A DNA stretch of 64,000 nt from Candidatus Wolfebacteria bacterium GW2011_GWB1_47_1. GTDB taxonomy: Bacteria; Patescibacteriota; Minisyncoccia; UBA6257; UBA9933. The notes beneath the pieces are model-generated. The model searched no databases, was not told the origin of the DNA, and saw only the letters and a list, made by a program, of their open reading frames with translations. Below are positions 3,518 through 54,601 of the stretch, one piece after another. The stretch is taken from the NCBI GenBank assembly GCA_001029635.1, contig CP011209.1, positions 747,969 to 811,968 on the forward strand, in the 5' to 3' direction. Every line of letters begins with the position of its first letter. Position 1 is the first letter of the stretch. The position numbers and the translations under genes are program-made.

Positions 3518-3775
3518 CTATCTAACCTCCAATAGGCCGCATCTCCTCATCTTATAGACATATTCCGGTATGCTTAACAATCTCTCATCTACAAACTTTT
3601 CCGTACAATTTTTATGGATTAGCGAGTCCTTATTCTTGTATTCTTCTCGAATACTCCTTACATACTCCCGCTCCCTATAAGATAGGGTTACATAAATAAT
3701 AGCCCCCACAAGGATCAAGAGCCCTATTAGTGAAATTCTATTGAAAACCTTTTCCTGTTGGTCTGGTTTTTCCAT
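3518..3775 (-). CDS. small membrane-anchored protein (85 aa)
   Basis: ORF track; one TM helix. Confidence 0.4.
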   Translation of the reverse strand: MEKPDQQEKVFNRISLIGLLILVGAIIYVTLSYREREYVRSIREEYKNKDSLIHKNCTEKFVDERLLSIPEYVYKMRRCGLLEVR

Positions 3776-3776
3776 T

Positions 3777-4202
3777 TTAGCGGAAAATTATATAGAGCCC
3801 AAAAATGAACGCATACCCCATTAACTCGTTAGCCTCCTCTTCATTCGGCCGGATCGTTTTATATATTCGGTTCACTTGATTGACCATATATAGCGCCACA
3901 ACTACTGGCAGTATCCTACCGGGTGCGTCAAACTTTACAATGATCAGTGTTAATAGAACTATATCACTAATGGCTCCACACGCCCCACTGGCGTAATCCC
4001 TGTAGCTCGCCTTCCCTTTACTTAACACGCCTCTGACTATGGAGTATAGCGCCATCTGCCCTACCATCCCTAATACAGACGACCAAAATAGCACAAAAAT
4101 TGCCCACCAAAATGGCAGTAGGAAAAATGGGGCGATGTATGCAATTAACCAAATGATCCGAAGTGAGTAGGTACGGATCACTAATTTATTAAATGCGTTC
4201 AT
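3777..4202 (-). CDS. membrane protein (141 aa)
   Basis: ORF track; 4 hydrophobic segments; stop abuts the next gene start. Confidence 0.45.
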   Translation of the reverse strand: MNAFNKLVIRTYSLRIIWLIAYIAPFFLLPFWWAIFVLFWSSVLGMVGQMALYSIVRGVLSKGKASYRDYASGACGAISDIVLLTLIIVKFDAPGRILPVVVALYMVNQVNRIYKTIRPNEEEANELMGYAFIFGLYIIFR

Positions 4203-4283
4203 TTTGGTTTTTAGGTTTTTAAACCTAAAATCTGGATTAATATATTAGGACACAAATCTAAAAAACTAAAAAATATATTCGTT

Positions 4284-4727
4284 TTATTTATTTTTTGTTA
4301 ACCTTATTTTTTCAACCTTATACGCTCTAAATGCCGTTCTTAGGAACAGGAACCATACAACCATTGCAACACCGGCGATCAATAAATTATCAGTAGATAT
4401 TGCCCCGCTCACCTTTGCCACCTTATCTAAATAAACAAATACATCCTTCACCGCCCATATAATCAAAACTATGGCCATTGTTAACGCCACTTTATTTCCC
4501 TTGTAGACAAAATACGCGGTAGATATATTTATAATCCCTGCGCTAAAAATATTAACCAGGGCCCTTTCAGATCCATCAATAAACAGGTATACGAATAAAT
4601 AAATTACGAATGGGGCAAGTAAAAATAACGCGGTTATTCCCCTATATGTTTTATATATAGGCAACGAACCGTACTTCTCTACCTGATCCCGCAAATAGTC
4701 CTTTGCAGGAATGGTTATGTCTTTCAT
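4284..4727 (-). CDS. membrane protein (start at MKDITIP)
   Basis: ORF 4284..4796 begins with TTG. The internal ATG at 4727 is the more plausible start. The product is hydrophobic. Confidence 0.45.
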   Translation of the reverse strand: MKDITIPAKDYLRDQVEKYGSLPIYKTYRGITALFLLAPFVIYLFVYLFIDGSERALVNIFSAGIINISTAYFVYKGNKVALTMAIVLIIWAVKDVFVYLDKVAKVSGAISTDNLLIAGVAMVVWFLFLRTAFRAYKVEKIRLTKNK

Positions 4728-4916
4728 ACTGTGGTGGGTTTTGCTGACCGGGAATGCATAAAGCTCCCCGCCAGCGATAGCCTTACGGCTACCCAAATCC
4801 CTTTCGAGATAAGACCCACCACAGGTGCTCTGACGAGGAGCTTAATGAACCTGTGGTGGGGGTTTTTGCCATATCTCGGGGATTTCCCAAGGGTTAGGCT
4901 ATGAAGTTATGCGTCT

Positions 4917-29516: not shown

Positions 29517-29827
29517 TCGAAGTGGACAGGTCGGTTACGGTTAACCTACTTGAATCGTCCTAGCAGGAACATGATTCCCGCCGCCATCAGCGCGAGTGTA
29601 AGCCCTTGCTCGATGATCGGAAAGAGTCCTCGCACAATGCGTGTCCCTAGTATTGCGGTCTGCTCGGGAGCGAGGACCGCAAGAATCACCACTCCGATCA
29701 GAACATTTACTAGATTCATCTCTCACCTCTCAATTGATAAGGTTCATATAACCGGCAGATCAGCAGTACGCCGATCAACATTGTTATGGTTATATTATAT
29801 ACCTTATCTCTATTTTTGTCAATATCT

Positions 29828-30844
29828 TCAGTTGAGCTCAATATCGATATGCACCACCTCCGGGTATTCTTCCTGGATGCGCTTCTCTATCTTGTCTATA
29901 TGATTTCCTACGAGTCGTGGCACGCGGTCTATGTAATCGACGCAGAATTTTATAAATTCCTGATAGTCATTCCTCACCTCTTCAAATTCCTCCCTTAATG
30001 CGCCCCGCGCAAACATTTCCTTTGCCAAGGCGTTTCCATTAAACTCAACCTCGCATTTGATACGATACTTCCCCACGTCCATGATTGCTGAACGAAAATC
30101 AGTCACGCTTTCGATCGCGGGATCTTCCTCGAGAATCTCAATAATCCGATCCTTTACCTCTTCTGGTATCGCCTTCCCTAAAAGTAATGCCCGGTTTTTA
30201 TTGATCAAAATAATAGCCATCACTCCCAACATCAATCCGATCACAATCGATCCAATTGCATCCCAATAATAGGCACCCGTGAGTTCGGTTAATAGGATGC
30301 TTACAAATGCGACGACGACACCCAACACAGCAATCCCATCTTCATAGAGCACCGCTATGGTTGCCGGATCGCCGTTCTTGAGAATCTTCTTAAACTTTGC
30401 CTTACCTCCCGTTTTTCTTAATTCTCGGTATGCCACGATCAATGTGCCTGATTCTATGACAAATGAGATTGCAAGGATTGTGAACACTATATACGTCACA
30501 TCCGCATGCTGTGGCCTGATCAAAGCATTAATGCCTTGATAGATTGTCGCACCCGCACCGACAAAGAAGATACCGCATGCCGAGATCAACGCCCAGAGAA
30601 ATCGCTCTTTCCCATAACCGTATGAAAATTCATTTGTCGCCTTCTTTTTTGACCGCCTAATACCCACCATCAACAATGCCTGATTCGCCGTGTCGGCAAA
30701 ACTGTGAATCGCCTCGGATAGCATCGCTCCCGAACCGGAAATAAAAAAGCCCACAAATTTGAGGACTGCAATAAAACCATTACCCAAAAGTGCCGCGATT
30801 ACCGGCAATGTTCCCTGTATACTCTGTGATCTGCTACTGCTCAT
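29828..30844 (-). CDS. cation diffusion facilitator (CDF) family metal efflux transporter
   Basis: 6 TM helices with the HSFADT motif and a C-terminal cytoplasmic domain; start taken at MSSSRSQ. Confidence 0.75.
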   Translation of the reverse strand: MSSSRSQSIQGTLPVIAALLGNGFIAVLKFVGFFISGSGAMLSEAIHSFADTANQALLMVGIRRSKKKATNEFSYGYGKERFLWALISACGIFFVGAGATIYQGINALIRPQHADVTYIVFTILAISFVIESGTLIVAYRELRKTGGKAKFKKILKNGDPATIAVLYEDGIAVLGVVVAFVSILLTELTGAYYWDAIGSIVIGLMLGVMAIILINKNRALLLGKAIPEEVKDRIIEILEEDPAIESVTDFRSAIMDVGKYRIKCEVEFNGNALAKEMFARGALREEFEEVRNDYQEFIKFCVDYIDRVPRLVGNHIDKIEKRIQEEYPEVVHIDIELN

Positions 30845-30929: not shown

Positions 30930-31703
30930 TTACCATCGCCGTCTGCCGAGATTGGTCGGTAACCGCTTACCGACTTCGATCCCGCGTAATGGCCCCTTGG
31001 CACAATACAAGCACTCGACAAACATATTCGTCAGCGTAATACACTTGATGATTCGTGAACCGATATCAAATACTACTGCGTATTCACTTACCGCGCACAT
31101 CGTTGCATTCACCCAATGCGGATAGGGTGCCTTGCTCCATCCCTCGATCCGTATCAGCGGGTATCTTGCGCCGCCAGGACGCACATGCGTTTCTATCCAG
31201 ATATGGGTCTGATCCAGCTTCCCAGAATCCCTTATCTCAGGCAATGCCGCTATGTACCTGTTCACATCTTCCCGTTTAAGAACCCACCCGTACGGCCCGC
31301 GGGCTCCGTAGTCAGGAATCAACACCTCGTCGCCATAGACAACCGCGTCGGCGACCCCCGTTACGATATGTATCTGCGGTACGGCAAAATAGGTCAATGC
31401 TGCTCGTGCATTCGTTATCTCCTGTGGCTTCGCGAACCAAAGATTATCATGTACTCCTTCATAGGAACGATCCTCCCGCATAAACAGCACAAGGTTCGCC
31501 CCCGAGTACGGAGTCCATATATCCTCTACGACGGCAATGCATTGTTTTTTTATAACCATGCGATACTCGCCGCTTTTAATGCGATCCACCTGTGCATATC
31601 GCTCGGCATCGTCTGGTATTACGTGCCCTGCGTAAAACACATCCCCTCGTGAAAGTGCGATGACTGTTGGATGCCATTGATCATTACTTATGACTCGAAC
31701 CAT
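30930..31703 (-). CDS. hypothetical protein (~258 aa) with C-terminal CxxC...CxxC
   Basis: ORF track (30930..31712, GTG start); the ATG at 31703 has AAGGAGG 8 nt upstream. Confidence 0.5.
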   Translation of the reverse strand: MVRVISNDQWHPTVIALSRGDVFYAGHVIPDDAERYAQVDRIKSGEYRMVIKKQCIAVVEDIWTPYSGANLVLFMREDRSYEGVHDNLWFAKPQEITNARAALTYFAVPQIHIVTGVADAVVYGDEVLIPDYGARGPYGWVLKREDVNRYIAALPEIRDSGKLDQTHIWIETHVRPGGARYPLIRIEGWSKAPYPHWVNATMCAVSEYAVVFDIGSRIIKCITLTNMFVECLYCAKGPLRGIEVGKRLPTNLGRRRW

Positions 31704-31903
31704 CAATACCACCTCCTTTTGTATATTCGCTTTATGAGCTTGTGTATGATTCTTTTTTTAGTATGCATATAATATTCTATTCCGTCAATCTACCCTACTA
31801 TACTTCGTCGGTGCCGTAGAAAGCATAGTGTCACCGACACTCAGGCGCGTTGCACGCTCTCCGTCGACTGACGGATCGCCAGCAACGACACAAAGTCACA
31901 ACG

Positions 31904-32309: not shown

Positions 32310-33071
32310 TCACAGACTTGTCAATATCTTTACACCTGTCTCTGTTATCGCGATTGTATGCTCAAACTGTGCAGACAATCCCTTATCCACCATTGCCCAG
32401 CTTTCATCTTTTAGCTGTTTTACCTGTCCTCTTCCTGTACACAACATCGGCTCAATCGCAAAGACCATGCCGGGTTTTAATAATAATCCCTCCCCTTTGT
32501 TGCCATAATTATAGACATATGGATCTTCATGAAGGCCATACCCAACACCATGGCCGGTCAATCCTTGCACCACACTCACGCCAGAGCGTTTTGCTACATA
32601 CTCCACAGCATAGCCTATATCGCCAATATGGGCACCTGGTCTTATTGCCTTAATAGCCTCTTCCAGGGCCTTGTGGGTCGCTTTTACAAGATTCTGAGCC
32701 TTCTGTGTGCCTTTCCCCGCTATAACCGTAAATGCAGAATCGGAGTACATTCCATCCAGCAAGACACCACAATCCACCTTCAGCACATCACCCACCTTTA
32801 TCGTTCGATCAGTCGGGAATCCATGCACGACAATCTCATTGATCGAGGTACAAATAGATGCCATATACGGGTGCTCCGCACCTCCTGGCTGGTAATTCAA
32901 AAATGCCGGCTCACCTCCCTCATTACGAATATATTCCCGTGCGACATCATCTAAATGTTTCAAGGTTACTCCGATGGCAACTTCCTTTTTTAATACTGCC
33001 ATCGTACGCGCCAAAACAGCCCCACTGCGAGCTATCTTGTCGATCTCTTCCTTTGTGTAAATGCGAACCAT
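32310..33071 (-). CDS. map: methionine aminopeptidase type I
   Basis: Metal ligands D..D..H..E..E in the VDCGVLLDGMYSD, HGVGYGLHE and AIEPM contexts. Confidence 0.9.
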   Translation of the reverse strand: MVRIYTKEEIDKIARSGAVLARTMAVLKKEVAIGVTLKHLDDVAREYIRNEGGEPAFLNYQPGGAEHPYMASICTSINEIVVHGFPTDRTIKVGDVLKVDCGVLLDGMYSDSAFTVIAGKGTQKAQNLVKATHKALEEAIKAIRPGAHIGDIGYAVEYVAKRSGVSVVQGLTGHGVGYGLHEDPYVYNYGNKGEGLLLKPGMVFAIEPMLCTGRGQVKQLKDESWAMVDKGLSAQFEHTIAITETGVKILTSL

Positions 33072-33139: not shown

Positions 33140-33481
33140 CTACTTTTCGTAGCGGAGAAAGGTGTACCACTCGCCTAAGGTGCCTTTCTGATACATAACG
33201 ACACGTGATCCGTTCCCCAGCTGCGGTGGGCACCCATTCGCATGGAGCGCGCCCCAGGTTTTCGTCTCTTCGATGTACACTGCGTATCCGATGAGCGGAC
33301 TACCCGATACGATCTGCGCCCCGCCGACCACTTGGCCGACGACTTCCTTAACCTTGACGTCACTAGCGGCTGCCTGCGCTGTGTCTTCTTTGTTTTTTTC
33401 CCCCGCTCCATACCAGGTAAACACAGCGATGAGCGCGGCAAGGCATATCAGCACAAACATGCCTGATTTCTGATTTCCCAT
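33140..33481 (-). CDS. small secreted or membrane-anchored hypothetical protein (113 aa)
   Basis: N-terminal hydrophobic segment; ORF track. Confidence 0.5.
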   Translation of the reverse strand: MGNQKSGMFVLICLAALIAVFTWYGAGEKNKEDTAQAAASDVKVKEVVGQVVGGAQIVSGSPLIGYAVYIEETKTWGALHANGCPPQLGNGSRVVMYQKGTLGEWYTFLRYEK

Positions 33482-33923: not shown

Positions 33924-34619
33924 TCACCGAAAGTATTCCCCTATCACTTCGTGTATCTTGTACGGCGCTGGCGTACCGTCCAATTTGACCACGTTATAGC
34001 CCCGCTTGATCGATTCTGCGATCACCGGTTCGGTGCGATTATGATATTCCTTTAAGCGTTGCTTGATAACTGTTGTCGTATCATCAACGCGATGTTCTAC
34101 CTTGCCTCCGCAAAAGGGACAGGTGGACGACTTATGTTTCACGTCCAGGAGCGGCGTGCGACACACCGAACAAATCGTTCTATGCGTATTGCGCTTTACC
34201 GTCGTTTCGTCCGGAATCTGCAAGAAGAAGATGTGTACGTTCTTTTTGCCATACTTCTTTGCCAGGAAATCGAGCAATCCGATGTGCTCTTCATCACCGA
34301 ATGCTTCGTATACGTTGCGTGGCGAACCACTAAACACGACTGACTGTCCAAGCTTTGCAAGCTCCGTCACTTGCTTGATAATCACACCCAAAACCCATGA
34401 TGGCGTGTTTAGCTTGCCCGATTCGTTCAGCTTGCGCTCCCGCTGGATCGCTTTATCGTTCTTGAATTTAGGGTTATTGAGCAACTTTCTCAAATATGCG
34501 CCCGTGTCGAAATGAAATAAATGTAATGTGTCTGCCAACAGCTGCGCTTGCGTACCCTTGCCCGATCCTGGCGGGCCATAGAACACGACTGCGATATTTT
34601 CAATGTTTGTTTTAGCCAT
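33924..34619 (-). CDS. adk: adenylate kinase (zinc-lid type)
   Basis: P-loop GPPGSGKGTQ; lid CSVCRTPL...CPFCGG; start taken at MAKTNIEN. Confidence 0.85.
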   Translation of the reverse strand: MAKTNIENIAVVFYGPPGSGKGTQAQLLADTLHLFHFDTGAYLRKLLNNPKFKNDKAIQRERKLNESGKLNTPSWVLGVIIKQVTELAKLGQSVVFSGSPRNVYEAFGDEEHIGLLDFLAKKYGKKNVHIFFLQIPDETTVKRNTHRTICSVCRTPLLDVKHKSSTCPFCGGKVEHRVDDTTTVIKQRLKEYHNRTEPVIAESIKRGYNVVKLDGTPAPYKIHEVIGEYFR

Positions 34620-34700
34620 GTATTTAGTATACCAAGTATTTTGGCAGTATGACAAAAAAAGGAGGCACGTCCACGTGCCTCCAAAGCTTTCTTTGAGGAT

Positions 34701-35156
34701 CTAGGGGGTTCCCAATTTCTTCCTCCTCGCCACTATGCGATTGCTTCTTTCCCAGTCTTCGGCCGACGGGATCTCTTCGCCGTACCCCATCCGATTGGCT
34801 GTAAGCGGAAAGTCCCGCATCATCGCAGCTACAAAGCTCTCCGGAGAAAGCTCCTCGAGCGCGAACTGCCGCTCAACCCGCTTACGGGCAGCTTCCAGGC
34901 CTTCGTCCGGCCACAGCCGCCCGTGCATGGACGAGATCAATACGCACGGCACCGCACCCTCTGCCAGCTTGAGGCGGTAGATCGAGGCCGGCCGCCCCTT
35001 CGTATCCTTTATCACGGGACTGTTCCCGGTTACCTCCACCACACCCCGGATCGACTTGCCGGAGAACGAATACAGCTCCCCATCCTTGCAGATCCACAGC
35101 GTGGAATTTCTTCCTGCGGTCTGCGCTGCACTGTTATATACAAACGCTTCTCTCAT
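34701..35156 (-). CDS. GC-rich hypothetical protein (151 aa)
   Basis: GGAGG SD 5 nt upstream; ~58% GC versus ~45% in the flanks; no homology recognised. Confidence 0.5.
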   Translation of the reverse strand: MREAFVYNSAAQTAGRNSTLWICKDGELYSFSGKSIRGVVEVTGNSPVIKDTKGRPASIYRLKLAEGAVPCVLISSMHGRLWPDEGLEAARKRVERQFALEELSPESFVAAMMRDFPLTANRMGYGEEIPSAEDWERSNRIVARRKKLGTP

Positions 35157-35368
35157 TGCTCCTCCCTTGAAACTCTGGTTTGAAAATCAACTGCTGGATA
35201 AATTATGTACCTAATCCATATTTTTGTCAATATGTTCTATTGACAATTTTGAATAATAAGTGCATGGTTTTATCGTACTTTAGCACTCCGCTCCGGCGGC
35301 CATATGGGTGGCGACCAACGCTAGCACGCCCGAATGCTAAATTTGGGACGAAAGAGGAGGGATAGCAA

Positions 35369-35911
35369 ATGGGAATCATGGCAAAGAATGGGTATGTATT
35401 GGTGCGCCTTGATGAGGCAAATGATGTATGGGAATCCATTCGACAAGCAACTAGAGAAACGACACGAATATCTCGGGAAAAAGTGTTTCGGATCGCCTCG
35501 CGTTTCGAAAACCTTATATTTGAACTCACCCCCGAGGAAGAAGCCGACCTCCTTGCATGGGGGTCTCAGACCATCAAACAAAGAGTCGAGGATAGATTCG
35601 TTACGAGCGGCTTCACGTGGGCCGAGATGGAACGCTGGGTCGCAAACTGCTATCTCATGCGCATCAACCCCCTCCCCACTCTTCGTCGGCTATGTGAACC
35701 CTTTGCACTTCCCGTCTACTACCGCAAGGATACGGAACTGTTTTTCGACCCGCTTTGCGGGCTCCTCTGCGTCGAAACCAAAGATTACACAAACCAGAAT
35801 TCGGTACGATTAACCGTCTTTGGAACCTTCGAGGATCTAAGGAAGGAGCTCGCCGAAATCGCGCGCGTCGATGAAGTCTTTATGAGTATTCGGGAGCATA
35901 ACGACAACTAG
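35369..35911 (+). CDS. hypothetical protein (180 aa)
   Basis: AGGAGG 8 nt upstream; followed by an intrinsic terminator. Confidence 0.55.
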   Translation: MGIMAKNGYVLVRLDEANDVWESIRQATRETTRISREKVFRIASRFENLIFELTPEEEADLLAWGSQTIKQRVEDRFVTSGFTWAEMERWVANCYLMRINPLPTLRRLCEPFALPVYYRKDTELFFDPLCGLLCVETKDYTNQNSVRLTVFGTFEDLRKELAEIARVDEVFMSIREHNDN

Positions 35912-35923
35912 TAGAGCCTCCCT

Positions 35924-35948
35924 GGCCCCGCATTGCGGGGCCTTTTTT
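35924..35948 (+). terminator. intrinsic terminator ggccccgcattgcggggcc + tttttt
   Basis: Hairpin followed by a T-run directly after the stop of 35369..35911. Confidence 0.55.
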
Positions 35949-36062
35949 AACTGCAGATTCCTCGACTTCATAGAGTACCGCGGAGTTTACCCTGAGCTTG
36001 TCGAATGGGCTCGGAATGACCCCGTAAAGTCCGCCCCGGGCGGACCACGAGGCAAGCACTGC

Positions 36063-36092
36063 AAAAAAGCCTCGCGTGAGCGAGGCTTTTTC
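36063..36092. terminator. bidirectional terminator aaaaaagcctcgcgtgagcgaggctttttt downstream of secY
   Basis: Perfect hairpin flanked by an A-run and a T-run. Confidence 0.5.
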
Positions 36093-36124
36093 TAATTCCA
36101 TTTTTCGTTTTTCTTTTCCGATCT

Positions 36125-37387
36125 TCACTCATATTCTCGAATGATCAATTGGGAGTTGATCTGTCGGATCGTTTCAAGTGCAACGGATACCACAATCAAG
36201 ATCGCGGTTCCTCCGATGGTCAACACGGCAATGCCGGTGAACATGCGGACGATATTCGGCAGAATCGCGATCAATCCAAGGAAGATTGCCCCCCACAAGG
36301 TGATGCGACTGATGACCTTGGTTAGGAAGGTCGTTGTCGACTCTCCTGGGCGGATGCCTGCGATGAATCCTCCCGCACGCTGGAGATTCTTTGAAATCTC
36401 ACTCGGATCGAATGTCACTGCCGTATAGAAATACGTGAAGATAACGACGAGCAGGAAGTATGCCGCGCTATACAAATACTGATTGTTCATAAACTGACTC
36501 ACAAAATCGGTCAGCTTCAATGAAAGGCTCTTTGAAAAGATCGCACTGATCTGCGCAACAAATTGCGGGAACAGGAGCAATGATATCGCAAAGATGATCG
36601 GTATAACGCCTGCTTGGTTTACCTTGATTGGTAAATAGCTTGAAACGCCACCATACATCTTGGTACCACGCACCTGCTTCGCGTACGAAACCGGAATCTT
36701 GCGCTCGCCTTCGTTGATATATACAACGCCCGCGATAACCGCAATCGCCACGATTACAAATCCAATATAGGTCGGGAGATCACTCGGATTGTATGTCTGC
36801 AAAATGTTTATGATCGTCTGCGGAAGACCGCTCACAATACCCGCAAAGATGATCAACGAAATACCATTACCAATCTTCTGCTCTGAAATCAATTCACCAA
36901 TCCACATAACCAGCATCGATCCGGCCATAATCACGAGTACATTCTTGATCAAATCCATCAGACCAAGACTTCCGACAACTCCCTGCGACGCAAGCAAGTT
37001 AAGAAATCCGTATGCCTGCAACCCTGCCAACGGCACGGTGAGATAGCGAGAGTAACGATTGAACTTTGCCCGTCCTGCAGCTCCTTCCTCGTAATACATC
37101 TCCTTCATCTTCGGGAAGATCATGGTCATCAACTGCATGATGATTGTCGCCGTAATGTACGGCCCGACACCCAACATAATAATGGATAAATTGCTTAGCG
37201 TTCCTCCGGCCATAATACCGACAAAACTAAACAACTGATTCGAACCGAAGAATTCTTCGAGCCTCATCTTATCAACTCCCGGAATTGGGATTGCCGAAAG
37301 GATCCGGAAACACACCAACAGGAATCCAACGGTCAAGACCTTCATCCGCAAATCCCTCAACTTGAAAATTTTCAGATATTTTTCCAT
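36125..37387 (-). CDS. secY: preprotein translocase subunit SecY
   Basis: 10 TM helices in the SecY pattern; 420 aa. Confidence 0.9.
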   Translation of the reverse strand: MEKYLKIFKLRDLRMKVLTVGFLLVCFRILSAIPIPGVDKMRLEEFFGSNQLFSFVGIMAGGTLSNLSIIMLGVGPYITATIIMQLMTMIFPKMKEMYYEEGAAGRAKFNRYSRYLTVPLAGLQAYGFLNLLASQGVVGSLGLMDLIKNVLVIMAGSMLVMWIGELISEQKIGNGISLIIFAGIVSGLPQTIINILQTYNPSDLPTYIGFVIVAIAVIAGVVYINEGERKIPVSYAKQVRGTKMYGGVSSYLPIKVNQAGVIPIIFAISLLLFPQFVAQISAIFSKSLSLKLTDFVSQFMNNQYLYSAAYFLLVVIFTYFYTAVTFDPSEISKNLQRAGGFIAGIRPGESTTTFLTKVISRITLWGAIFLGLIAILPNIVRMFTGIAVLTIGGTAILIVVSVALETIRQINSQLIIREYE

Positions 37388-37623: not shown

Positions 37624-38247
37624 ATGGCAGCTCCCAAAGGGAGAAAGTTCTCGGTAATAGCGTTGCAGTTCAGATTCCCCACCCTCGACAGCGTCCCTCC
37701 TTTCACGAGGCAGATAGCGCGTCGCCCGACCAAGACATCCAATCCGGCGACGCTTACCGGAGAACAGATCGTCGGCGCAACGGAAGGCACGTCCATCCTT
37801 GCACTCCTCGACGATCTCAAGGCGAAGGGGTACGACCTGGTTAATGCATGCTGCGAGGAGCGGCGCAACGTCAAAGGCCCCGGCTCGCATTACATCGCCC
37901 GGTACACCTTTGCAACCGCCGAGAGCGGGTTGTCGATCACCGAACGCTTCGAGTATCGCAAGGCAACGTTCCTCCGGGAGCTCGCCTTCATCGGCGAGTC
38001 GGCCCTGTGGAAGAACCGGACGTTCTCCAACCCCTTCATTAGGGACGGGAAACCGGTCACCGGTTTCCGTGCGGCGAGTCTGGTCTTCGACACCCGCCAA
38101 CCCTTCTACCAGGGTGACGGCCAGCCGGTCACGGTCTGGCTCAAGGACGAGGCAGGCGAGCGCATCGGCGATGCGCCCATTCCCCTGGCCCCCTCCCACC
38201 ACCTCCGCTACCTGAAGACCAAGGGCTTCAGGGTCGTGAGCGCCTAG
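37624..38247 (+). CDS. GC-rich orphan protein (207 aa) inserted between secY and rplO
   Basis: AGGAGG 6 nt before the ATG; ~62% GC; own promoter and terminator; opposite strand to the surrounding operon. Confidence 0.6.
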   Translation: MAAPKGRKFSVIALQFRFPTLDSVPPFTRQIARRPTKTSNPATLTGEQIVGATEGTSILALLDDLKAKGYDLVNACCEERRNVKGPGSHYIARYTFATAESGLSITERFEYRKATFLRELAFIGESALWKNRTFSNPFIRDGKPVTGFRAASLVFDTRQPFYQGDGQPVTVWLKDEAGERIGDAPIPLAPSHHLRYLKTKGFRVVSA

Positions 38248-50427: not shown

Positions 50428-50452
50428 ATGTACGTCATCTGATGACGTACAT
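50428..50452. promoter_or_regulatory. perfect palindrome ATGTACGTCAT-ctg-ATGACGTACAT in the promoter region of 49672..50349
   Basis: Direct read; adjacent to TTGACA; candidate dimeric regulator site. Confidence 0.35.
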
Positions 50453-50525
50453 AGCACGTTACCTGCAAAATGGCGTCCTCCCCGCACTCCCTCCAGTCAT
50501 ACGGGTTTCCTGGTAGGGTAGTAAA

Positions 50526-50575
50526 AAGTTCGGCAGATGCCTGCCGAACTTTGTAGTTCGGCAACATTGCCGAAC
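50526..50575 (-). terminator. tandem hairpins aagttcggcag-atgc-ctgccgaactt and gttcggcaa-cat-ttgccgaac after the kinase gene
   Basis: Two perfect stems sharing the ttcggca core directly downstream of the stop of 50597..51154. Confidence 0.4.
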
Positions 50576-50596
50576 CCATCGCCTTCCCTAGGTAGA

Positions 50597-51154
50597 TCAT
50601 AAATTCCTCACGAGCGCATCCACCTTCCGCAGTAGATCCTCCCGCTCGCCTTCGTTTATGATCAGGAAGTCCGCCATTGCGATCGGCCCCGCCTGATGCA
50701 GGTTTTCGATCTGCGATCGGTCACGACTCCAGGCCTCGGCCGCCGTCAACGGGCGCTTAGGGCGTATCGCAAGACGCGCATAACGGATCGCCGGCGATGC
50801 ATGTACCGCGACAACTAGAAACGCGCTCCCGAATACGTCCCTAAAGCGCATAAATTCTTCCCAGGAATAGAGGCTCTCAACCAGAACATGCGGTGTGTCG
50901 ATTATAGGTTCGATCTTCTGAATCACCCGCTCGGCATAAACCAACGGACCAAACTCGCTACGCAGACCTTCGCGGACAGCCCGTTCATTCTCCTCACTGA
51001 TTGCCAGTCCGCGACGCGCCATCTCATCGAACGTGACTTCCCCAAAATATACTTTTGGCCATCCATACCTTTCGATAATATACTCGACGACCTCAGTCTT
51101 CCCCGCGCCTGACAATCCGATTATGGCGATGATCTTTCTCTGACCTTCCATACA
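50597..51154 (-). CDS. P-loop nucleotide/nucleoside kinase (dNMP- or dephospho-CoA-kinase-like)
   Basis: Walker A IIGLSGAGKT close to the N-terminus; AGGAGG SD before MEGQRK; ~185 aa, the size of small kinases. Confidence 0.55.
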   Translation of the reverse strand, partial: CMEGQRKIIAIIGLSGAGKTEVVEYIIERYGWPKVYFGEVTFDEMARRGLAISEENERAVREGLRSEFGPLVYAERVIQKIEPIIDTPHVLVESLYSWEEFMRFRDVFGSAFLVVAVHASPAIRYARLAIRPKRPLTAAEAWSRDRSQIENLHQAGPIAMADFLIINEGEREDLLRKVDALVRNL

Positions 51155-51306
51155 AGTACCTCCTTCTGTGTTTAATGGTCTGGCGTCAGTATGACTCCTT
51201 TTTTTGCAGATTTCCACTCTTTGACAATACTTATTGTATATGGTTATATTTCGACAGAATCATTATCAATCAGTAATCCATATCACACCAGAAAACGGAG
51301 GTTCAC

Positions 51307-52134
51307 ATGCAACAGTATCTTGATCTCATCCAGGATGTTCTCAACAATGGAAAGCGTAAAGGCGACCCCCACGGCATCGGCAATCTCGCTGTATGCGGGC
51401 GGACCATGCGCTTCGACCTCACTGAGGGGTTTCCTCTCATCACCACCAAAAGCATGAAGAGTCTGTGGAAGTCTGTCATCGGCGAACTGCTTTGGTTCCT
51501 TTCGGGGAGTACGAGCATCGCCGATCTCAAGGCGTACGGTGTCAACTTCTGGGACCAGTGGGCGGACCAAAAGACCTGCGATATCATGGGTCTTCCGCTC
51601 GGCGAACTCGGACCGATCTACGGCAAACAGTGGCGCGCCTTCGAAGGAGGTGGCCCCAAGCCCGTGGACCAGATCCAACAGCTCGTCAACGATCTCAAGA
51701 CCAGTCCCGATTCACGAAGACTGATCGTCTCGTCCTGGAACCCGGTCGACGCAGATCGCGTGTTCGTAGCTCCCTGCCACTGCTTTTACAAGCTGTATCA
51801 CGCAGAGGGAGAGCTCTCCCTGCATCTGTTCCAGCGGAGTGGGGACATGCCCATCGGTATCCCTTTCAACATCGCGGAGTACTCACTCCTTCTGATGATG
51901 TTGGCGCAGATCACCGGGCTCAAGGCAAAAGAGTTCATCCATACCATTTCTGACACCCACATCTATCTGAACCAGATCGAGTTCATGCGCGAGCAACTTA
52001 CCCGCGATCCGCGGCCGTTGCCTAGCGTGACCCTCAATTCCAACATCACCGACATCTTCGGCTTCACCCCCGACGACTTCATTCTTACGGGGTACGATCC
52101 GCATCCTTACATCAAGATCCCCGTCGCGTGGTAA
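51307..52134 (+). CDS. thyA: thymidylate synthase
   Basis: APCHCFYKLY active-site Cys region; GDTHIYLNQ; C-terminal GYDPHPYIKIPVAW. Confidence 0.9.
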   Translation: MQQYLDLIQDVLNNGKRKGDPHGIGNLAVCGRTMRFDLTEGFPLITTKSMKSLWKSVIGELLWFLSGSTSIADLKAYGVNFWDQWADQKTCDIMGLPLGELGPIYGKQWRAFEGGGPKPVDQIQQLVNDLKTSPDSRRLIVSSWNPVDADRVFVAPCHCFYKLYHAEGELSLHLFQRSGDMPIGIPFNIAEYSLLLMMLAQITGLKAKEFIHTISDTHIYLNQIEFMREQLTRDPRPLPSVTLNSNITDIFGFTPDDFILTGYDPHPYIKIPVAW

Positions 52135-52158
52135 CCCGCGATACACAAGGAGCTCTCT

Positions 52159-53142
52159 ATGATCATTTCGGTCATCTTCGCCATGAACGGCGATCGCATC
52201 ATTGGCAACAAAGGCGGTCTGCCCTGGCATCTGCCGAGCGATCTGCACCGATTCAGAGCACTCACCGCCGGCAAGCCGGTCATCATGGGGCGTCGGACCT
52301 TCGAGTCCATACTCGCCCGCAACCGAAAGCCGCTTCCCGACCGCTGTAACGTGGTCGTCACCCGCAATATCGCACCGTGGAAGCATCGCCAGAGCACGCA
52401 CCCCGAAATGTTTCGCAACTGCGTCTTTGTCGAATCGCTTCAGCAGGGCATCCATCTGATGAACCCCTCTCCCGAGGTATTCATCATTGGAGGGTCTCAG
52501 ATCTACGCACAGGCACTCTCGTTCGCTGACCGGATGTACTTCACACAAGTGCAGGGTAAATTTGAGGGAGATACAACATTCCCCCAGTTCAACCCGCACC
52601 AGTGGAGGACCGTCCATGACGAGCTCATACGCACAGACAACCATCCGTATGCGTTCTCGATCCTGGAGCGTCTCGACACCGGCGCGTCACTCGGATCAAC
52701 TTCGGGTACCGACCTGGTCAACCCGACCTTTGCCAAAAGCGAAGGGTATGGCAAGACCATTACTGAAATCATCGAGGCGGGCATCTGCCCGTTCTGCCCC
52801 GAACACTTCCTTTGGCATCCCTGGCCGATCCTACATCGCTCCGGCGACTGGATCCTCACTCGTAGCGGATGGCCGTACGAGAACGCAGAGCATCACTTCC
52901 TCATCATCGGAAACAAACACCTCATCGCCGACATCGACATGAGCGATGCCGACGACCATCATGTAAAAGGACTCACCCGATGGGCCATCGAACAATTCGG
53001 CCTCAAAGGATGGGGGAAGATCGCTCGTTCTGGCGAAACAAGCCACACCGGCGCGACCGTACAGCATTTGCACTACCATCTCATCCAGCCCAAACCGGGC
53101 CTGGATGGAAAGGCACTGCCAGTCAACTTCCCGATCGGATGA
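52159..53142 (+). CDS. folA: dihydrofolate reductase fused to a C-terminal HIT (Hint-like) domain
   Basis: Residues 1-165 are DHFR (GGLPWHLPSDL, VIMGRRTFESI, FIIGGSQIY). Residues ~200-327 carry CPFCP plus the histidine triad HLHYHLI. Confidence 0.8.
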   Translation: MIISVIFAMNGDRIIGNKGGLPWHLPSDLHRFRALTAGKPVIMGRRTFESILARNRKPLPDRCNVVVTRNIAPWKHRQSTHPEMFRNCVFVESLQQGIHLMNPSPEVFIIGGSQIYAQALSFADRMYFTQVQGKFEGDTTFPQFNPHQWRTVHDELIRTDNHPYAFSILERLDTGASLGSTSGTDLVNPTFAKSEGYGKTITEIIEAGICPFCPEHFLWHPWPILHRSGDWILTRSGWPYENAEHHFLIIGNKHLIADIDMSDADDHHVKGLTRWAIEQFGLKGWGKIARSGETSHTGATVQHLHYHLIQPKPGLDGKALPVNFPIG

Positions 53143-53159
53143 TATGGATCCACAAAAAA

Positions 53160-53186
53160 GCCCCGCGCATGCGGGGCTTGTTTTTA
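53160..53186. terminator. bidirectional terminator aaaaaagccccgcgcatgcggggcttgttttt
   Basis: Hairpin with flanking A- and T-runs between convergent folA and the deaminase gene. Confidence 0.55.
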
Positions 53187-53201
53187 TTCTCAGTAGGGCT
53201 A

Positions 53202-54056
53202 TCATGCCACATGGACGATCTCGACCCCCCGACTCCTGAGAATGCTTTCTCCCTCCAGATAAGCGCACCCGGAAGAAAAGTACAGTCGGGAAATTCCAGA
53301 TTCAGCTACGAGGCCAGCGCAAGGAGTGCACGGGAACACCGTGACATACAAATGCATGCCTTTGAGCGGGATGCCTTCGCGCGCAGCCCTGGCCACGATC
53401 CCTGCCTCGGCATGAATCGTGGACGCCAGCTCCGGGCTCGTGCCCGCCCGCACAAAGTCGCGCGGATCCCCTACAGCATACGGCGTATGCTCGCTCGGAA
53501 GATGTTTGTTGTGCGCCATCAACAAGACTTGCCTGCTTTCCGGATGGATCACCGCCGCACCTACTTGGCGCCACCAGCATGAGGTCTTTTGCCCCTCATC
53601 CTCCGCGGCCCGTATCGCCTCCTTATCGGCGAGGTCCACGGTCCTCCAGTCGAAGTTGACCTTTACTTCCAATTTTACTCGGTTAGGATCCCATCGGAGA
53701 AACACCGACTCTTTTACGACCGACTCTTCCGGGAAGTAGTGCTCAACGAAGCTTCTGCTTGCCTCATCGTTCGCGACAATGATCTGCCGTCCGTGTAGTC
53801 GCTGCAAGAACGCCAGCGACTGCCTGTTGAGCACCTCCACATGCGGGAATATCCGCAACCCCCGAATCGCCTTTACGACATCCTTCGGATCCATTGCCCT
53901 GATCTCGCGCACGCCGGGTTGAAGCTCTCGCATCATCTCGTTCCCAAACACGTAGCATGCCTCGATGCGATGCCGGTACCGCTCAAACAGATCGATATAC
54001 CCCTGATGGAGCACCGGCACATACAGCACGAGGAAACTTCTTATGAACGCATTCAT
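53202..54056 (-). CDS. dCMP/CMP-type deaminase domain protein with ~130-aa N-terminal extension
   Basis: C-terminal HAEAGIV...PCTPCAGL zinc-binding signature of the cytidine/deoxycytidylate deaminase fold. Confidence 0.65.
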   Translation of the reverse strand: MNAFIRSFLVLYVPVLHQGYIDLFERYRHRIEACYVFGNEMMRELQPGVREIRAMDPKDVVKAIRGLRIFPHVEVLNRQSLAFLQRLHGRQIIVANDEASRSFVEHYFPEESVVKESVFLRWDPNRVKLEVKVNFDWRTVDLADKEAIRAAEDEGQKTSCWWRQVGAAVIHPESRQVLLMAHNKHLPSEHTPYAVGDPRDFVRAGTSPELASTIHAEAGIVARAAREGIPLKGMHLYVTVFPCTPCAGLVAESGISRLYFSSGCAYLEGESILRSRGVEIVHVA

Positions 54057-54601
54057 ACCAGCCCCCTTTCCTTAAGCATCGTGATGATCGGCGCCAGACA
54101 GTCCCGCAGAATCCTGAAGACCAGATTCGATGTACTCGTTTCTGCCTGCCGAGGAAGCATCTTTACCTCTCCGCAATATTGCTTGATCTCCTCGATCTGC
54201 TCCGGCGGGTATGAGTCGTCGGTAATGATGAACGTATCTACCTGAATCTCTTTGATCAGACCGTACTGCCACCTTCCTTCTTCGTCAACGTCGTCGAGTA
54301 ATAGGATAAGGTCCACACACTCGAGATAGGACAGCATCTCCATTCGCTCATCCTGGACAACCATAGGGCGCATGGAATTTTTCTTGTACAGCTTGATCGC
54401 ACGGTCACTATCCGTACCGACGATCAACACATCACCCTCTTCCTTCGCCTTCATCAGGTATCGGACATGCCCCACATGCAACATGTCCCACGATCCGATT
54501 GTCACGATAATCCTGCAGCCTTGTGCCCGCAGTCCTTCGACGATCGCCAGCAGTGCCCTTGGGTCCTTTACCACCTTCTTCTTGTGATCAAGTAGATGCA
54601 T
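54053..54601 (-). CDS. cytidylyltransferase-like nucleotidyltransferase (HxGH motif; RfaE domain II / glycerol-3-P cytidylyltransferase-like)
   Basis: TIGSWDMLHVGHVRYL; 182 aa; 4-nt overlap with the deaminase gene. Confidence 0.6.
   Translation of the reverse strand: MHLLDHKKKVVKDPRALLAIVEGLRAQGCRIIVTIGSWDMLHVGHVRYLMKAKEEGDVLIVGTDSDRAIKLYKKNSMRPMVVQDERMEMLSYLECVDLILLLDDVDEEGRWQYGLIKEIQVDTFIITDDSYPPEQIEEIKQYCGEVKMLPRQAETSTSNLVFRILRDCLAPIITMLKERGLV

What the first reader, a model, noticed from the sequence alone, without database searches (positions are those of the whole stretch)
34701..35948. Second GC-rich insertion (divergent gene pair) between adk and secY
Two unrelated orphan ORFs, 151 aa on the minus strand and 180 aa on the plus strand, both with strong SD, separate adk from secY, which are usually contiguous. 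The pair is divergently arranged around a 200-bp AT-rich spacer. The 34701..35156 segment is ~58% GC. The plus gene ends in a GCCCCGC-type terminator. The size and arrangement would fit a toxin-antitoxin or small two-gene module.
Basis: partly seen in the sequence, partly recalled or inferred. Interest (0 to 1): 0.6.

Follow-up and report, generated by a model that had tools for sequence, protein, structure and literature searches.

The report
Two independent fast-evolving accessory genes
Between the housekeeping genes adk and secY of a Candidatus Wolfebacteria genome lie two real but unrelated accessory genes, each its own transcription unit; they come and go independently in relatives and evolve far faster than their neighbours, so they are not a toxin-antitoxin pair.

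Summary
ORFs of 151 aa (34701-35156, minus) and 180 aa (35369-35911, plus) split adk from secY, with strong ribosome-binding sites, a 212-bp spacer, 59% GC in the first ORF and a hairpin terminator after the second.

The interpretation does not hold. Neither gene is an orphan. orf151 belongs to an uncharacterised ~130-aa domain family of about 26 representative clusters, found in candidate-phyla-radiation (CPR) bacteria, a few Proteobacteria and phage contigs. Its AlphaFold2 model is confident (pLDDT 89) and has no Foldseek neighbour in PDB or BFVD. orf180 belongs to a small family seen only between adk and secY in related Wolfebacteria.

The two genes occur independently: relatives carry orf180 alone, an orf151-type gene alone, or orf180 plus two orf151 paralogues. 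orf151 has a predicted promoter and terminator of its own. orf180 has its own terminator and a promoter that is near-consensus in relatives but weak in the window. That argues against a two-gene or toxin-antitoxin module.

Two further results:
- orf180 is hypervariable. In two strains whose flanks are 90-100% identical, its coding sequence is only 33-67% identical.
- orf180 always follows a ~100-nt three-hairpin leader that is better conserved than most flanking coding DNA and absent from Rfam.

Function remains unknown. A role in phage or host conflict is my guess.

The parts
34701..35156 (-). orf151: 151-aa cytoplasmic protein, member of an uncharacterised ~130-aa domain family (six-strand beta half plus four helices)
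   Evidence: ORF. GC3 0.72. 28 HMMER representatives. Syntenic homologues in L007, L008, L012 and L014. AlphaFold2 pLDDT 89.1. No Foldseek neighbour in PDB or BFVD.
34655..34682 (-). Intrinsic terminator of orf151 (GGAGGCACG-TGGA-CGTGCCTCC plus T-run). The T-run merges into the -35 box of the adk promoter.
   Evidence: The same layout is present in L014. Related stems follow the paralogues in L007.
34626..34655 (-). adk promoter (TTGTCA-18-TATACT). The adk ATG at 34619-34617 lies 6 nt after the -10 box, so the mRNA looks leaderless.
   Evidence: The same geometry is seen in L014 and L001.
35160..35166 (-). Shine-Dalgarno sequence of orf151 (GGGAGGA)
   Evidence: Read from the sequence.
35202..35230 (-). 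orf151 promoter, TTGACA-17-CATAAT (11 of 12 consensus positions), in the organism's native promoter style
   Evidence: It is 82% identical over 49 nt to another promoter-like site at 29787-29835.
35240..35268 (+). orf180 promoter: TTGACA, 17 nt, CATGGT. The -10 box is weak here; relatives have CATAAT or TATAAA.
   Evidence: Alignment of eight loci. The -35 box lies back-to-back with the orf151 -35 box.
35271..35368 (+). Conserved structured 5' leader of orf180: hairpins P1, P2 and P3, followed by the ribosome-binding site AAAGAGGAGG
   Evidence: No Rfam match at E<=10.
35369..35911 (+). orf180: acidic 180-aa protein of a hypervariable, mosaic family confined to the adk|secY gap of related Wolfebacteria
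35924..35948 (+). Intrinsic terminator of orf180 (GGCCCCGC-ATT-GCGGGGCC plus T-run)
   Evidence: The equivalent hairpin is present in L007 at 4424-4446.
36064..36091 (.). Perfect 12-bp palindrome with A/T runs on both sides (AAAAAGCCTCGC/GCGAGGCTTTTT), a bidirectional terminator that ends secY
   Evidence: (inverted repeat I3) and the sequence.

Best explanation
The adk-secY gap in this Wolfebacteria lineage is a small variable accessory islet. It holds two unrelated genes, each in its own single-gene transcription unit.

1. orf151 resembles a phage 'moron' cassette. It has a near-consensus sigma-70 promoter, a ribosome-binding site, a GC3-rich ORF and its own intrinsic terminator, and it sits directly upstream of the adk promoter. 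It encodes a soluble member of an uncharacterised ~130-aa domain family shared by CPR bacteria, a few Proteobacteria and phage genomes. Copy number at this site ranges from 0 to 2 among relatives, and the copies are only 35-46% identical to one another.

2. orf180 is a clade-restricted acidic protein that always lies at this site, on the strand opposite adk and secY. It always follows a ~100-nt three-hairpin 5' leader, which is the best-conserved non-coding stretch of the locus. Its coding sequence is hypervariable and mosaic.

Shown: the gene anatomy, the independent presence and absence of the two genes, the family distributions, the rate contrast with the flanks, the sharp boundaries of orf180 divergence, and the conservation of the leader with limited covariation.

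Inferred:
- orf180 alleles are swapped by homologous recombination anchored in the conserved leader and the secY end.
- The leader controls orf180 expression after transcription, by binding a protein or a ligand.
- Both proteins act in genetic conflict (phage defence or exclusion, or interaction with the host of this episymbiont) rather than in housekeeping. I put this last, functional step at about 0.3.
For: Anatomy:
- orf151 has promoter TTGACA-17-CATAAT (35230-35202) and terminator 34682-34661. orf180 has terminator 35924-35942.
- Promoters and leader are aligned across eight loci.

Independence of the two genes:
- orf180 homologue only: L001, L002/L003, L009.
- orf151-type gene only: L014, ordered secY, terminator, promoter, gene, terminator, adk.
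- Both, with two orf151 paralogues: L007, L008, L012.

Family reach of orf151:
- 28 HMMER representatives, about 26 of them genuine.
- Seven IMG/VR viral contigs.
- A phage-like contig with HTH_3 regulators and a YqaJ/RecE-like exonuclease.
- CPR and proteobacterial genomes, including Minisyncoccus archaeiphilus.

Structure of orf151: AlphaFold2 pLDDT 89.1 and pTM 0.76. Foldseek found nothing below E = 0.04 or above TM 0.33 in PDB or BFVD.

Rates, window versus L007:
- dN is 0.63 for orf151 and 0.61 for orf180, against 0.025 for secY.
- dN/dS is 0.45 and 0.24, against 0.03-0.04 for the housekeeping neighbours.
- Purifying selection is visible between the close strains L007 and L008: dN/dS 0.14-0.17 for the orf151 paralogues.

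Allele replacement of orf180:
- L007 and L008 are 90-100% identical in DNA over most of adk, both paralogues, the leader and secY.
- Identity falls to 33-67% over L007 3884-4474, essentially the orf180 coding sequence (3865-4416) and its terminator.
- Alleles are mosaic: P0004 versus P0008 is 24% identical in the N-terminal third and 70% in the C-terminal third.

Leader:
- 83-92% DNA identity, against 59-66% for its own coding sequence, 81-86% for secY and 73-77% for adk.
- 99.4% of pair cells form standard pairs, against 36-58% in slid controls.
- One pair shows GC, CG and UA; one shows UA changed to GU.
- The covariation score is reached by 0 of 500 shuffles.
- The covariance model finds the leader only upstream of orf180 homologues, not in L014.
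Against: - No function is demonstrated for either protein.
- Promoters and terminators are consensus predictions without transcript data. The counts of promoter-like and terminator-like sites in the region are only 0.7 and 1.8 sd above shuffled sequence (8 versus 6.2 +/- 2.6, and 11 versus 7.0 +/- 2.2). Their exact placement around each ORF is what makes them persuasive.
- The window's own orf180 -10 box is weak (CATGGT).
- The leader alignment has only 7 closely related sequences, so covariation rests on two pairs. No consistent sequestration of the ribosome-binding site was found.
- Relatives are short metagenomic contigs. Chimeric assembly could blur which allele belongs to which strain, although the divergent alleles themselves are real.
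- orf151 is in a chromosome, not a prophage, so the 'moron' label is an analogy.
- The conflict role rests only on fast evolution, patchy distribution and presence in phages.
Confidence: 0.7

Rival explanations
1. One reading: the divergent pair is a toxin-antitoxin or other obligate two-gene module.
For: Two small adjacent genes of suitable size, one basic (pI 9.2) and one acidic (pI 5.0), lying in accessory DNA.
Against: - Each gene occurs without the other in relatives.
- The genes are divergent, with separate promoters and terminators.
- There are no toxin, antitoxin or defence HMM matches.
- L007 and L008 carry identical orf151 paralogues but orf180 alleles only 41% identical, so the two genes do not co-evolve.
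Confidence: 0.04
2. A recent horizontal insertion of foreign, higher-GC DNA that is specific to this species.
For: - orf151 has GC 0.59 and GC3 0.72, against 0.46 for the window.
- Most phage contigs carrying the family are 0.65-0.68 GC.
- orf151-type genes are absent from L001, L002 and L009.
Against: - Homologues occupy the same site in L007, L008, L012 and L014, with related terminator stems.
- The promoter is of native style.
- orf180 is present at this site in every relative that has flanking sequence.
- The acquisition therefore predates the split of these lineages, or import recurs into the same site.
Confidence: 0.12
3. Lineage-specific housekeeping partners of the ribosome, SecY translocon or adenylate kinase, kept in the ribosomal-protein operon because they work with it.
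For: - The position within the L15-secY-adk-map string is strictly conserved across all relatives seen.
- Two further cassettes of the same kind, orf207 and orf113, sit in neighbouring gaps with positional homologues in L007.
Against: - dN is 10-25 times that of the flanking genes.
- Whole-gene allele replacement has occurred between near-identical strains.
- Presence and absence vary among relatives.
- orf151 relatives lie in phages and in unrelated chromosomal contexts, such as next to alaS or a uridine kinase-CYTH gene.
- The cassettes are transcribed separately from the operon.
Confidence: 0.08
4. orf180 is diversified in place by a dedicated mechanism, either a diversity-generating retroelement or gene conversion from silent cassettes.
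For: - Divergence has sharp boundaries that match the coding sequence.
- Diversity-generating retroelements are reported to be common in CPR bacteria (from my own knowledge).
Against: - There is no template-like repeat or partial copy of orf180 anywhere in the 64-kb window.
- Divergence spans the whole coding sequence and includes indels, rather than one adenine-targeted C-terminal stretch.
- No reverse-transcriptase gene turned up among the window ORFs that were scanned, but the window was not scanned exhaustively.
Confidence: 0.03
5. The ORFs are non-coding artefacts of GC-rich DNA.
For: GC-rich segments carry ORFs in several frames.
Against: - Homologous proteins exist.
- GC3 periodicity is in the called frame.
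- dN/dS is 0.14-0.17 between close strains.
- The AlphaFold2 model is confident.
- The orf180 family has a conserved core.
Confidence: 0.01

Closest known systems
Phage 'morons' (independent transcription units inserted between neighbouring genes; definition as in PMC3594210)
   Same: orf151 is a single gene with its own predicted promoter and terminator. Its base composition differs from its neighbours. It lies between genes that are adjacent in some relatives. Its family also occurs in phage genomes.
   Different: It sits in a bacterial ribosomal-protein operon tail, not in a prophage. No integrase or phage genes are nearby. Its promoter looks native. No benefit to the host is known.
Type II toxin-antitoxin modules
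   Same: Two small adjacent genes, one basic and one acidic, in accessory DNA.
   Different: The genes are divergent rather than co-transcribed. Each occurs without the other. There is no homology to any toxin or antitoxin family. The two do not co-vary.
Hypervariable or polymorphic loci exchanged between conserved flanks (for example immunity genes of polymorphic toxin systems, or defence-island hot spots)
   Same: orf180 alleles differ by 50-65% within an almost identical backbone. Boundaries are sharp and alleles are mosaic. The protein is small and acidic.
   Different: There is no adjacent toxin, no known defence gene and no recombinase. This is a single gene at a housekeeping locus in a reduced CPR genome, and no function has been tested.
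Cis-regulatory 5' leaders and riboswitches (Rfam families, including ribosomal-protein leaders)
   Same: A ~100-nt structured element lies between the promoter and the ribosome-binding site. It is more conserved than the gene it precedes, has some compensatory changes, and contains G-U pairs that fit the mRNA strand.
   Different: It matches none of the 4227 Rfam models, even at E<=10. No ligand or binding protein is known. No consistent switch involving the ribosome-binding site or a terminator is predicted. Only 7 near-identical examples exist.

Membership tests
Type II toxin-antitoxin system | Two adjacent genes co-transcribed as one operon | tested here: not met
   The genes are divergent. 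orf151 has its own predicted promoter and terminator. orf180 has its own terminator and a promoter that is near-consensus in relatives.
Type II toxin-antitoxin system | The two components co-occur across genomes | tested here: not met
   orf180 only in L001, L002 and L009. orf151-type only in L014. Both in L007 and L008.
Type II toxin-antitoxin system | Homology to a known toxin or antitoxin fold or family | tested here: not met
   No Pfam, PADLOC, NCBIfam or PHROGs match. No PDB sequence hit. No Foldseek hit for orf151. orf180 structure not predicted.
Type II toxin-antitoxin system | One product is toxic and the other neutralises it | not testable with these tools
   Needs expression experiments.
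Phage moron | Independent transcription unit with its own promoter and terminator | tested here: met
   orf151 has TTGACA-17-CATAAT and a 9-bp hairpin with a T-run. These are sequence predictions only.
Phage moron | Inserted between genes that are adjacent in related genomes, with differing base composition | tested here: met
   adk faces the orf180 homologue directly in L001, L002 and L009. GC 0.59 and GC3 0.72, against 0.46 for the window.
Phage moron | Resides in a phage or prophage genome | tested here: not met
   The window locus is a ribosomal-protein operon with no phage genes. Only distant family members are on viral contigs.
Known RNA family (Rfam 15) | Match to a curated covariance model | tested here: not met
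   No match at E<=10 in 35150-35420. At gathering thresholds the whole window gave only LOOT RNA and one tRNA.
Riboswitch or cis-regulatory leader (generic) | Conserved secondary structure supported by covariation, on the mRNA strand upstream of the regulated gene | tested here: inconclusive
   Three hairpins, 99.4% of cells paired, two pairs with compensatory changes, 0 of 500 shuffles reach the covariation score. Only 7 close sequences are available. No ligand and no expression platform identified.
Diversity-generating retroelement target | Nearby reverse transcriptase and a template repeat matching a variable region | tested here: not met
   No repeat of orf180 in the window. Variation spans the whole coding sequence. 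The rest of the genome was not searched.
Known anti-phage defence systems (PADLOC-DB 2.0) | Match to a defence protein model | tested here: not met
   Zero families at E<=1 for orf151, orf180, orf207, orf113 and orf260.

The most novel reading that the evidence does not exclude
orf180 and its leader form a previously undescribed kind of locus in CPR bacteria. On this reading, a new structured-RNA class (riboswitch or protein-binding leader) controls a polymorphic specificity protein, for example an immunity, exclusion or host-recognition determinant. Alleles would be swapped like cassettes by recombination between the invariant leader and the secY end. Separately, the orf151 family would be a new protein fold exchanged between phages and CPR cells.
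Probability: 0.2. Interest if true: 0.7.

Novelty: new variant of a known kind. Interest (0 to 1): 0.5.

Why it matters
CPR bacteria have tiny genomes packed with genes of unknown function. Here, one of the most conserved gene strings in bacteria (L15-secY-adk-map) is interrupted by four self-contained, fast-evolving cassettes.

- If these genes mediate phage or host conflict, the locus is a compact, easily recognised marker of strain-level diversification in Wolfebacteria.
- The orf180 leader is a candidate new regulatory RNA.
- The orf151 domain is a candidate new fold shared with phages. A homologue exists in the cultured Minisyncoccus archaeiphilus, which makes experiments possible.

The case also carries a methodological warning: a gene called 'orphan' by a word-indexed search had about 26 detectable relatives.

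Tried and rejected
**Family and homology searches**
- Pfam, PHROGs, PADLOC and NCBIfam scans of both proteins and of family members gave nothing.
- The word-indexed homology search for orf151 returned only orf151 itself. This was a false negative, later corrected by direct BLAST against relatives' loci and by full HMMER.
- RCC1-repeat hits P0030 and P0032 were dismissed as spurious hairpin-level matches.
- PDB sequence searches with profiles of both families gave nothing credible.
- tblastn against INPHARED phages found nothing for orf151, P0016 or orf180.
- Searches of viral contigs for the orf180, orf207 and orf260 families found nothing.

**Structure**
- The single-sequence AlphaFold2 model of orf151 was poor (pLDDT 49).
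- Foldseek against PDB and BFVD gave no significant neighbour.

**Related loci and neighbourhoods**
- The search for related loci with the whole orf151 alignment failed for lack of a conserved stretch. A sub-alignment worked.
- The metagenome pattern scan for the leader core found only the contig already known.
- Neighbourhood analysis of 18 loci found no recurrent partner gene for the orf151 family beyond scattered pairs.

**Mechanism tests**
- No silent cassettes or template repeats for orf180 were found.
- No consistent sequestration of the ribosome-binding site by the leader was found.
- I considered a type III toxin-antitoxin arrangement, with an RNA antitoxin upstream of a ~180-aa toxin. 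I rejected it because the leader is not a tandem repeat, orf180 is acidic, and there is no PADLOC match.
Full report
**1. Where the window comes from and what surrounds the finding**

Exact protein matches place the window in a Candidatus Wolfebacteria genome, a CPR (Parcubacteria) lineage; the match was named GW2011_GWE1_48_7. The minus strand carries the tail of the ribosomal-protein cluster: L6, L18, S5, L15, secY (36125-37387), adk (33924-34619), map (32310-33071).

Four extra ORFs interrupt this string:

| ORF | Position | Strand | Lies between |
|---|---|---|---|
| orf207 | 37624-38247 | + | L15 and secY |
| orf180 | 35369-35911 | + | secY and adk |
| orf151 | 34701-35156 | - | secY and adk |
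| orf113 | 33140-33481 | - | adk and map |

From general knowledge, secY-adk-map are contiguous at the end of the spc operon in many bacteria.

**2. The observation**

- The ORF coordinates and lengths are correct.
- The ribosome-binding sites are GGGAGGA at 35160-35166 (minus strand) and GAGGAGG about 9 nt before 35369.
- The spacer is 212 bp, and the GC-profile windows over it read about 0.40-0.42.
- orf151 is 0.59 GC against 0.458 for the window.
- The terminator GGCCCCGC-ATT-GCGGGGCC plus a T-run lies at 35924-35942.

Both ORFs code for protein.
- orf151 shows GC3 0.72 > GC1 0.57 > GC2 0.49.
- Both have homologues (section 3).
- The orf151-type paralogues of two close strains give dN/dS of 0.14-0.17.
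- A 19-sequence alignment gives an AlphaFold2 model with pLDDT 89.1 and pTM 0.76.

**3. Neither gene is an orphan**

*orf180.* Word-indexed searches found six other clusters, 35-48% identical to it. Every contig with flanking sequence places the gene between adk and secY on the opposite strand (L001, L007, L008, L009), or next to adk (L002/L003, L010).

*orf151.* The word-indexed search found only the query itself. Direct BLAST against the loci fetched for orf180 then showed two tandem paralogues (133 and 137 aa, 37-45% identical, E about 1e-28 to 1e-31). They lie at the same site and on the same strand in L007 and L008.

A full HMMER scan of 1.84 billion representatives then gave 28 hits, about 26 of them genuine. 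Most are single-domain proteins of 125-150 aa. Some carry an extra C-terminal domain, and one has two copies of the domain.

The family occurs in:
- seven IMG/VR viral contigs;
- a phage-like contig, beside HTH_3 regulators and a YqaJ/RecE-like exonuclease;
- CPR genomes: Staskawiczbacteria, Paceibacterota, Saccharibacteria, Uhrbacteria and the cultured Minisyncoccus archaeiphilus;
- Smithella and two Gammaproteobacteria assemblies.

No family member matches Pfam, PHROGs, PADLOC or NCBIfam, or any PDB sequence.

The confident model has a six-strand beta half (residues 5-75) followed by four helices. Foldseek finds no neighbour in PDB or BFVD (best E = 0.04-0.14, TM below 0.33). The invariant and near-invariant positions are mostly hydrophobic or glycine (L20, W21, G26, F31, G33, I36, W82, F108, P117). 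That pattern suggests a scaffold or binding module more than an enzyme; this is my inference.

**4. The two genes are independent**

| Occupancy of the adk|secY gap | Loci |
|---|---|
| orf180 homologue only | L001, L002/L003, L009 |
| orf151-type gene only | L014 |
| orf180 plus one orf151-type gene | window |
| orf180 plus two orf151-type genes | L007, L008, L012 |

In L014 the order is secY, terminator, promoter, gene, terminator, adk, all on one strand.

In the window, orf151 has a near-consensus promoter (TTGACA-17-CATAAT, 35230-35202) and its own hairpin terminator (34682-34661). The terminator's T-run merges into the -35 box of an adk promoter, TTGTCA-18-TATACT. orf180 has its own terminator. 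Its promoter is TTGACA-17-CATAAT or TATAAA in relatives, but has a weak CATGGT -10 box in the window. A bidirectional palindrome at 36064-36091 ends secY.

The overall counts of promoter-like and terminator-like sites are only 0.7 and 1.8 sd above shuffled sequence. The exact bracketing of each ORF is what gives them weight. The same layout recurs in L014 and L007.

Divergent, separately terminated genes that occur without each other are not what a toxin-antitoxin or obligate two-gene module looks like. No toxin, antitoxin or defence model matches either protein.

**5. Evolution of the locus**

Between the window and its closest long relative, L007, conservation differs sharply by gene class.

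| Gene | Protein identity, window vs L007 |
|---|---|
| SecY | 96% |
| Map | 89% |
| Adk | 83% |
| orf151 | 39-44% |
| orf180 | 38% |
| orf207 | 48% |
| orf113 | 58% |

- dN is 0.52-0.63 for orf151, orf180 and orf207 and 0.29 for orf113, against 0.025-0.11 for the housekeeping genes.
- dN/dS is 0.24-0.50 for the four accessory genes against 0.03-0.04.
- A 100-nt identity profile along 11 kb shows a backbone mostly at 75-95%, with coding-region troughs only at the four cassettes (the other brief dips fall in short intergenic gaps). A single spike of 0.83 marks the orf180 leader.
- The orf151-type copies at this site in different contigs are all 35-46% identical to one another, with no clear orthology.

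The most striking result comes from L007 versus L008. Their DNA is 90-100% identical over most of adk, both orf151 paralogues, the leader and secY. It drops to 33-67% over L007 3884-4474, essentially the orf180-homologue coding sequence (3865-4416) and its terminator. The two proteins are 41% identical.

orf180 alleles are also mosaic. P0004 and P0008 are 24% identical in the N-terminal third and 70% in the C-terminal third.

I read this as allele replacement by homologous recombination anchored in conserved flanks. That is an inference. Neither a diversity-generating retroelement nor silent-cassette conversion finds support, because the window holds no repeat or partial copy of orf180.

**6. 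The orf180 leader**

The ~100 nt between the orf180 promoter and its ribosome-binding site (window 35271-35368) is 83-92% identical across loci. The gene's own coding sequence is 59-66% identical, secY 81-86% and adk 73-77%.

RNAalifold and most single-sequence folds give three hairpins:
- P1: UCCGC-UCCG-GCGGA.
- P2: UGGCG-loop-CGCUA, with an invariant stem and a variable loop.
- P3: CGCCCGAAU-GCUAA-AUUUGGG.CG.

Support for the structure:
- One P1 pair appears as G-C, C-G and U-A.
- One P3 pair changes from U-A to G-U.
- Several G-U pairs fit the mRNA strand only.
- 99.4% of pair cells are standard pairs, against 36-58% when partners are slid.
- No shuffle out of 500 reaches the observed covariation score.

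With only seven close sequences, this is suggestive rather than proof.

A covariance model finds the element only upstream of orf180 homologues, among 28 sources searched, and not in L014. Rfam 15 has no match even at E<=10. I found no consistent occlusion of the ribosome-binding site, so the mode of regulation is open.

**7. What it most likely is**

This is a small variable accessory islet with two independent cassettes.
- orf151 is a moron-like gene drawn from a pool shared with phages. The moron concept is as defined in PMC3594210, found.
- orf180 is a clade-restricted, hypervariable gene controlled by its leader.

I favour a role in genetic conflict (phage exclusion or defence, or interaction with the host cell of this episymbiont), at about 0.3 probability. 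The grounds are fast evolution, deep allelic diversity, patchy presence, own promoters, and phage association for orf151. None of this is a functional test.

**8. Comparison with known systems and novelty**

The locus fails the definitions of several known categories:
- type II toxin-antitoxin systems (operon structure, co-occurrence, homology);
- known defence systems (PADLOC);
- diversity-generating retroelement targets;
- every Rfam family.

It meets the structural criteria of a moron except for residence in a phage. The concept of a hypervariable accessory cassette between conserved flanks is known. The setting is new: four such cassettes inside the ribosomal-protein operon tail of a CPR genome. 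So are the orf151 fold candidate and the conserved leader paired with a hypervariable gene. I rate it a new variant of a known kind, with interest 0.5.

**9. Limits**

- The relatives are short metagenomic contigs.
- No structure was predicted for orf180.
- No transcript or functional data exist.

Noticed in passing
window 37624-38247 (+) and 33140-33481 (-): orf207 (GC 0.62, GC3 0.80; between L15 and secY) and orf113 (N-terminal membrane-anchor-like segment; between adk and map) are cassettes of the same kind as orf151. Each has its own TTGACA-17 promoter and hairpin terminator. Each has a 48-58% identical homologue at the same site in L007, and neither gave a tblastn match in L001 (which ends just past secY, so the orf207 site is barely covered). 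Neither matches any protein family.
   Followed up: partly
window 34617-34655 (-); L014 745-792; L001 about 3700-3740: adk appears to be translated from a leaderless mRNA. A -10 box (TATACT or TATAAT) lies exactly 6 nt before the ATG, and there is no Shine-Dalgarno sequence. This holds in the window and in two relatives.
   Followed up: partly
window 4776-4900 (-): A LOOT RNA (Rfam RF03000) matches at 74 bits, against a gathering score of 46.
   Followed up: no
window 30930-31712 (-); L029 10133-10915; L001 815-1582: orf260, another protein with no family match, has a 37% homologue at the same place in L001. It also has a 27-29% homologue about 1.5 kb from an orf151-family gene in a Gammaproteobacteria assembly. 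This may be a loose association of two mobile families, or it may be chance.
   Followed up: partly
window 50450-54600: A GC-rich block (0.56-0.63) encodes a P-loop kinase, thymidylate synthase, dihydrofolate reductase, a dCMP-deaminase-like protein and a cytidylyltransferase. Raised GC in this genome is therefore not confined to genes without family matches.
   Followed up: partly
window 29787-29835 and 35195-35243: The orf151 promoter region is 82% identical over 49 nt to another promoter-like site just downstream of the cation-efflux gene (ATATTGACAAAAATA...GGTAnATAAT). This is probably the organism's strong native promoter type.
   Followed up: partly
window 35880-36128 (-): Public gene calls list a 73-82 aa ORF here. 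It overlaps the 3' end of orf180 and both terminators between orf180 and secY, so it looks spurious. The region is poorly conserved against L007.
   Followed up: no
L018 7479-7913 and L025 2797-3240: A ~145-aa protein (30% identical between a viral contig and a Staskawiczbacteria genome; starts with NxxNHPxxxWSPxQ) lies immediately upstream of the orf151-family gene in both. It has no Pfam match.
   Followed up: no
method: The word-indexed protein search reported orf151 as having no relative, while a full HMMER scan found 28. 'Orphan' calls from the fast search should not be trusted for proteins diverging at 35-45% identity.
   Followed up: yes
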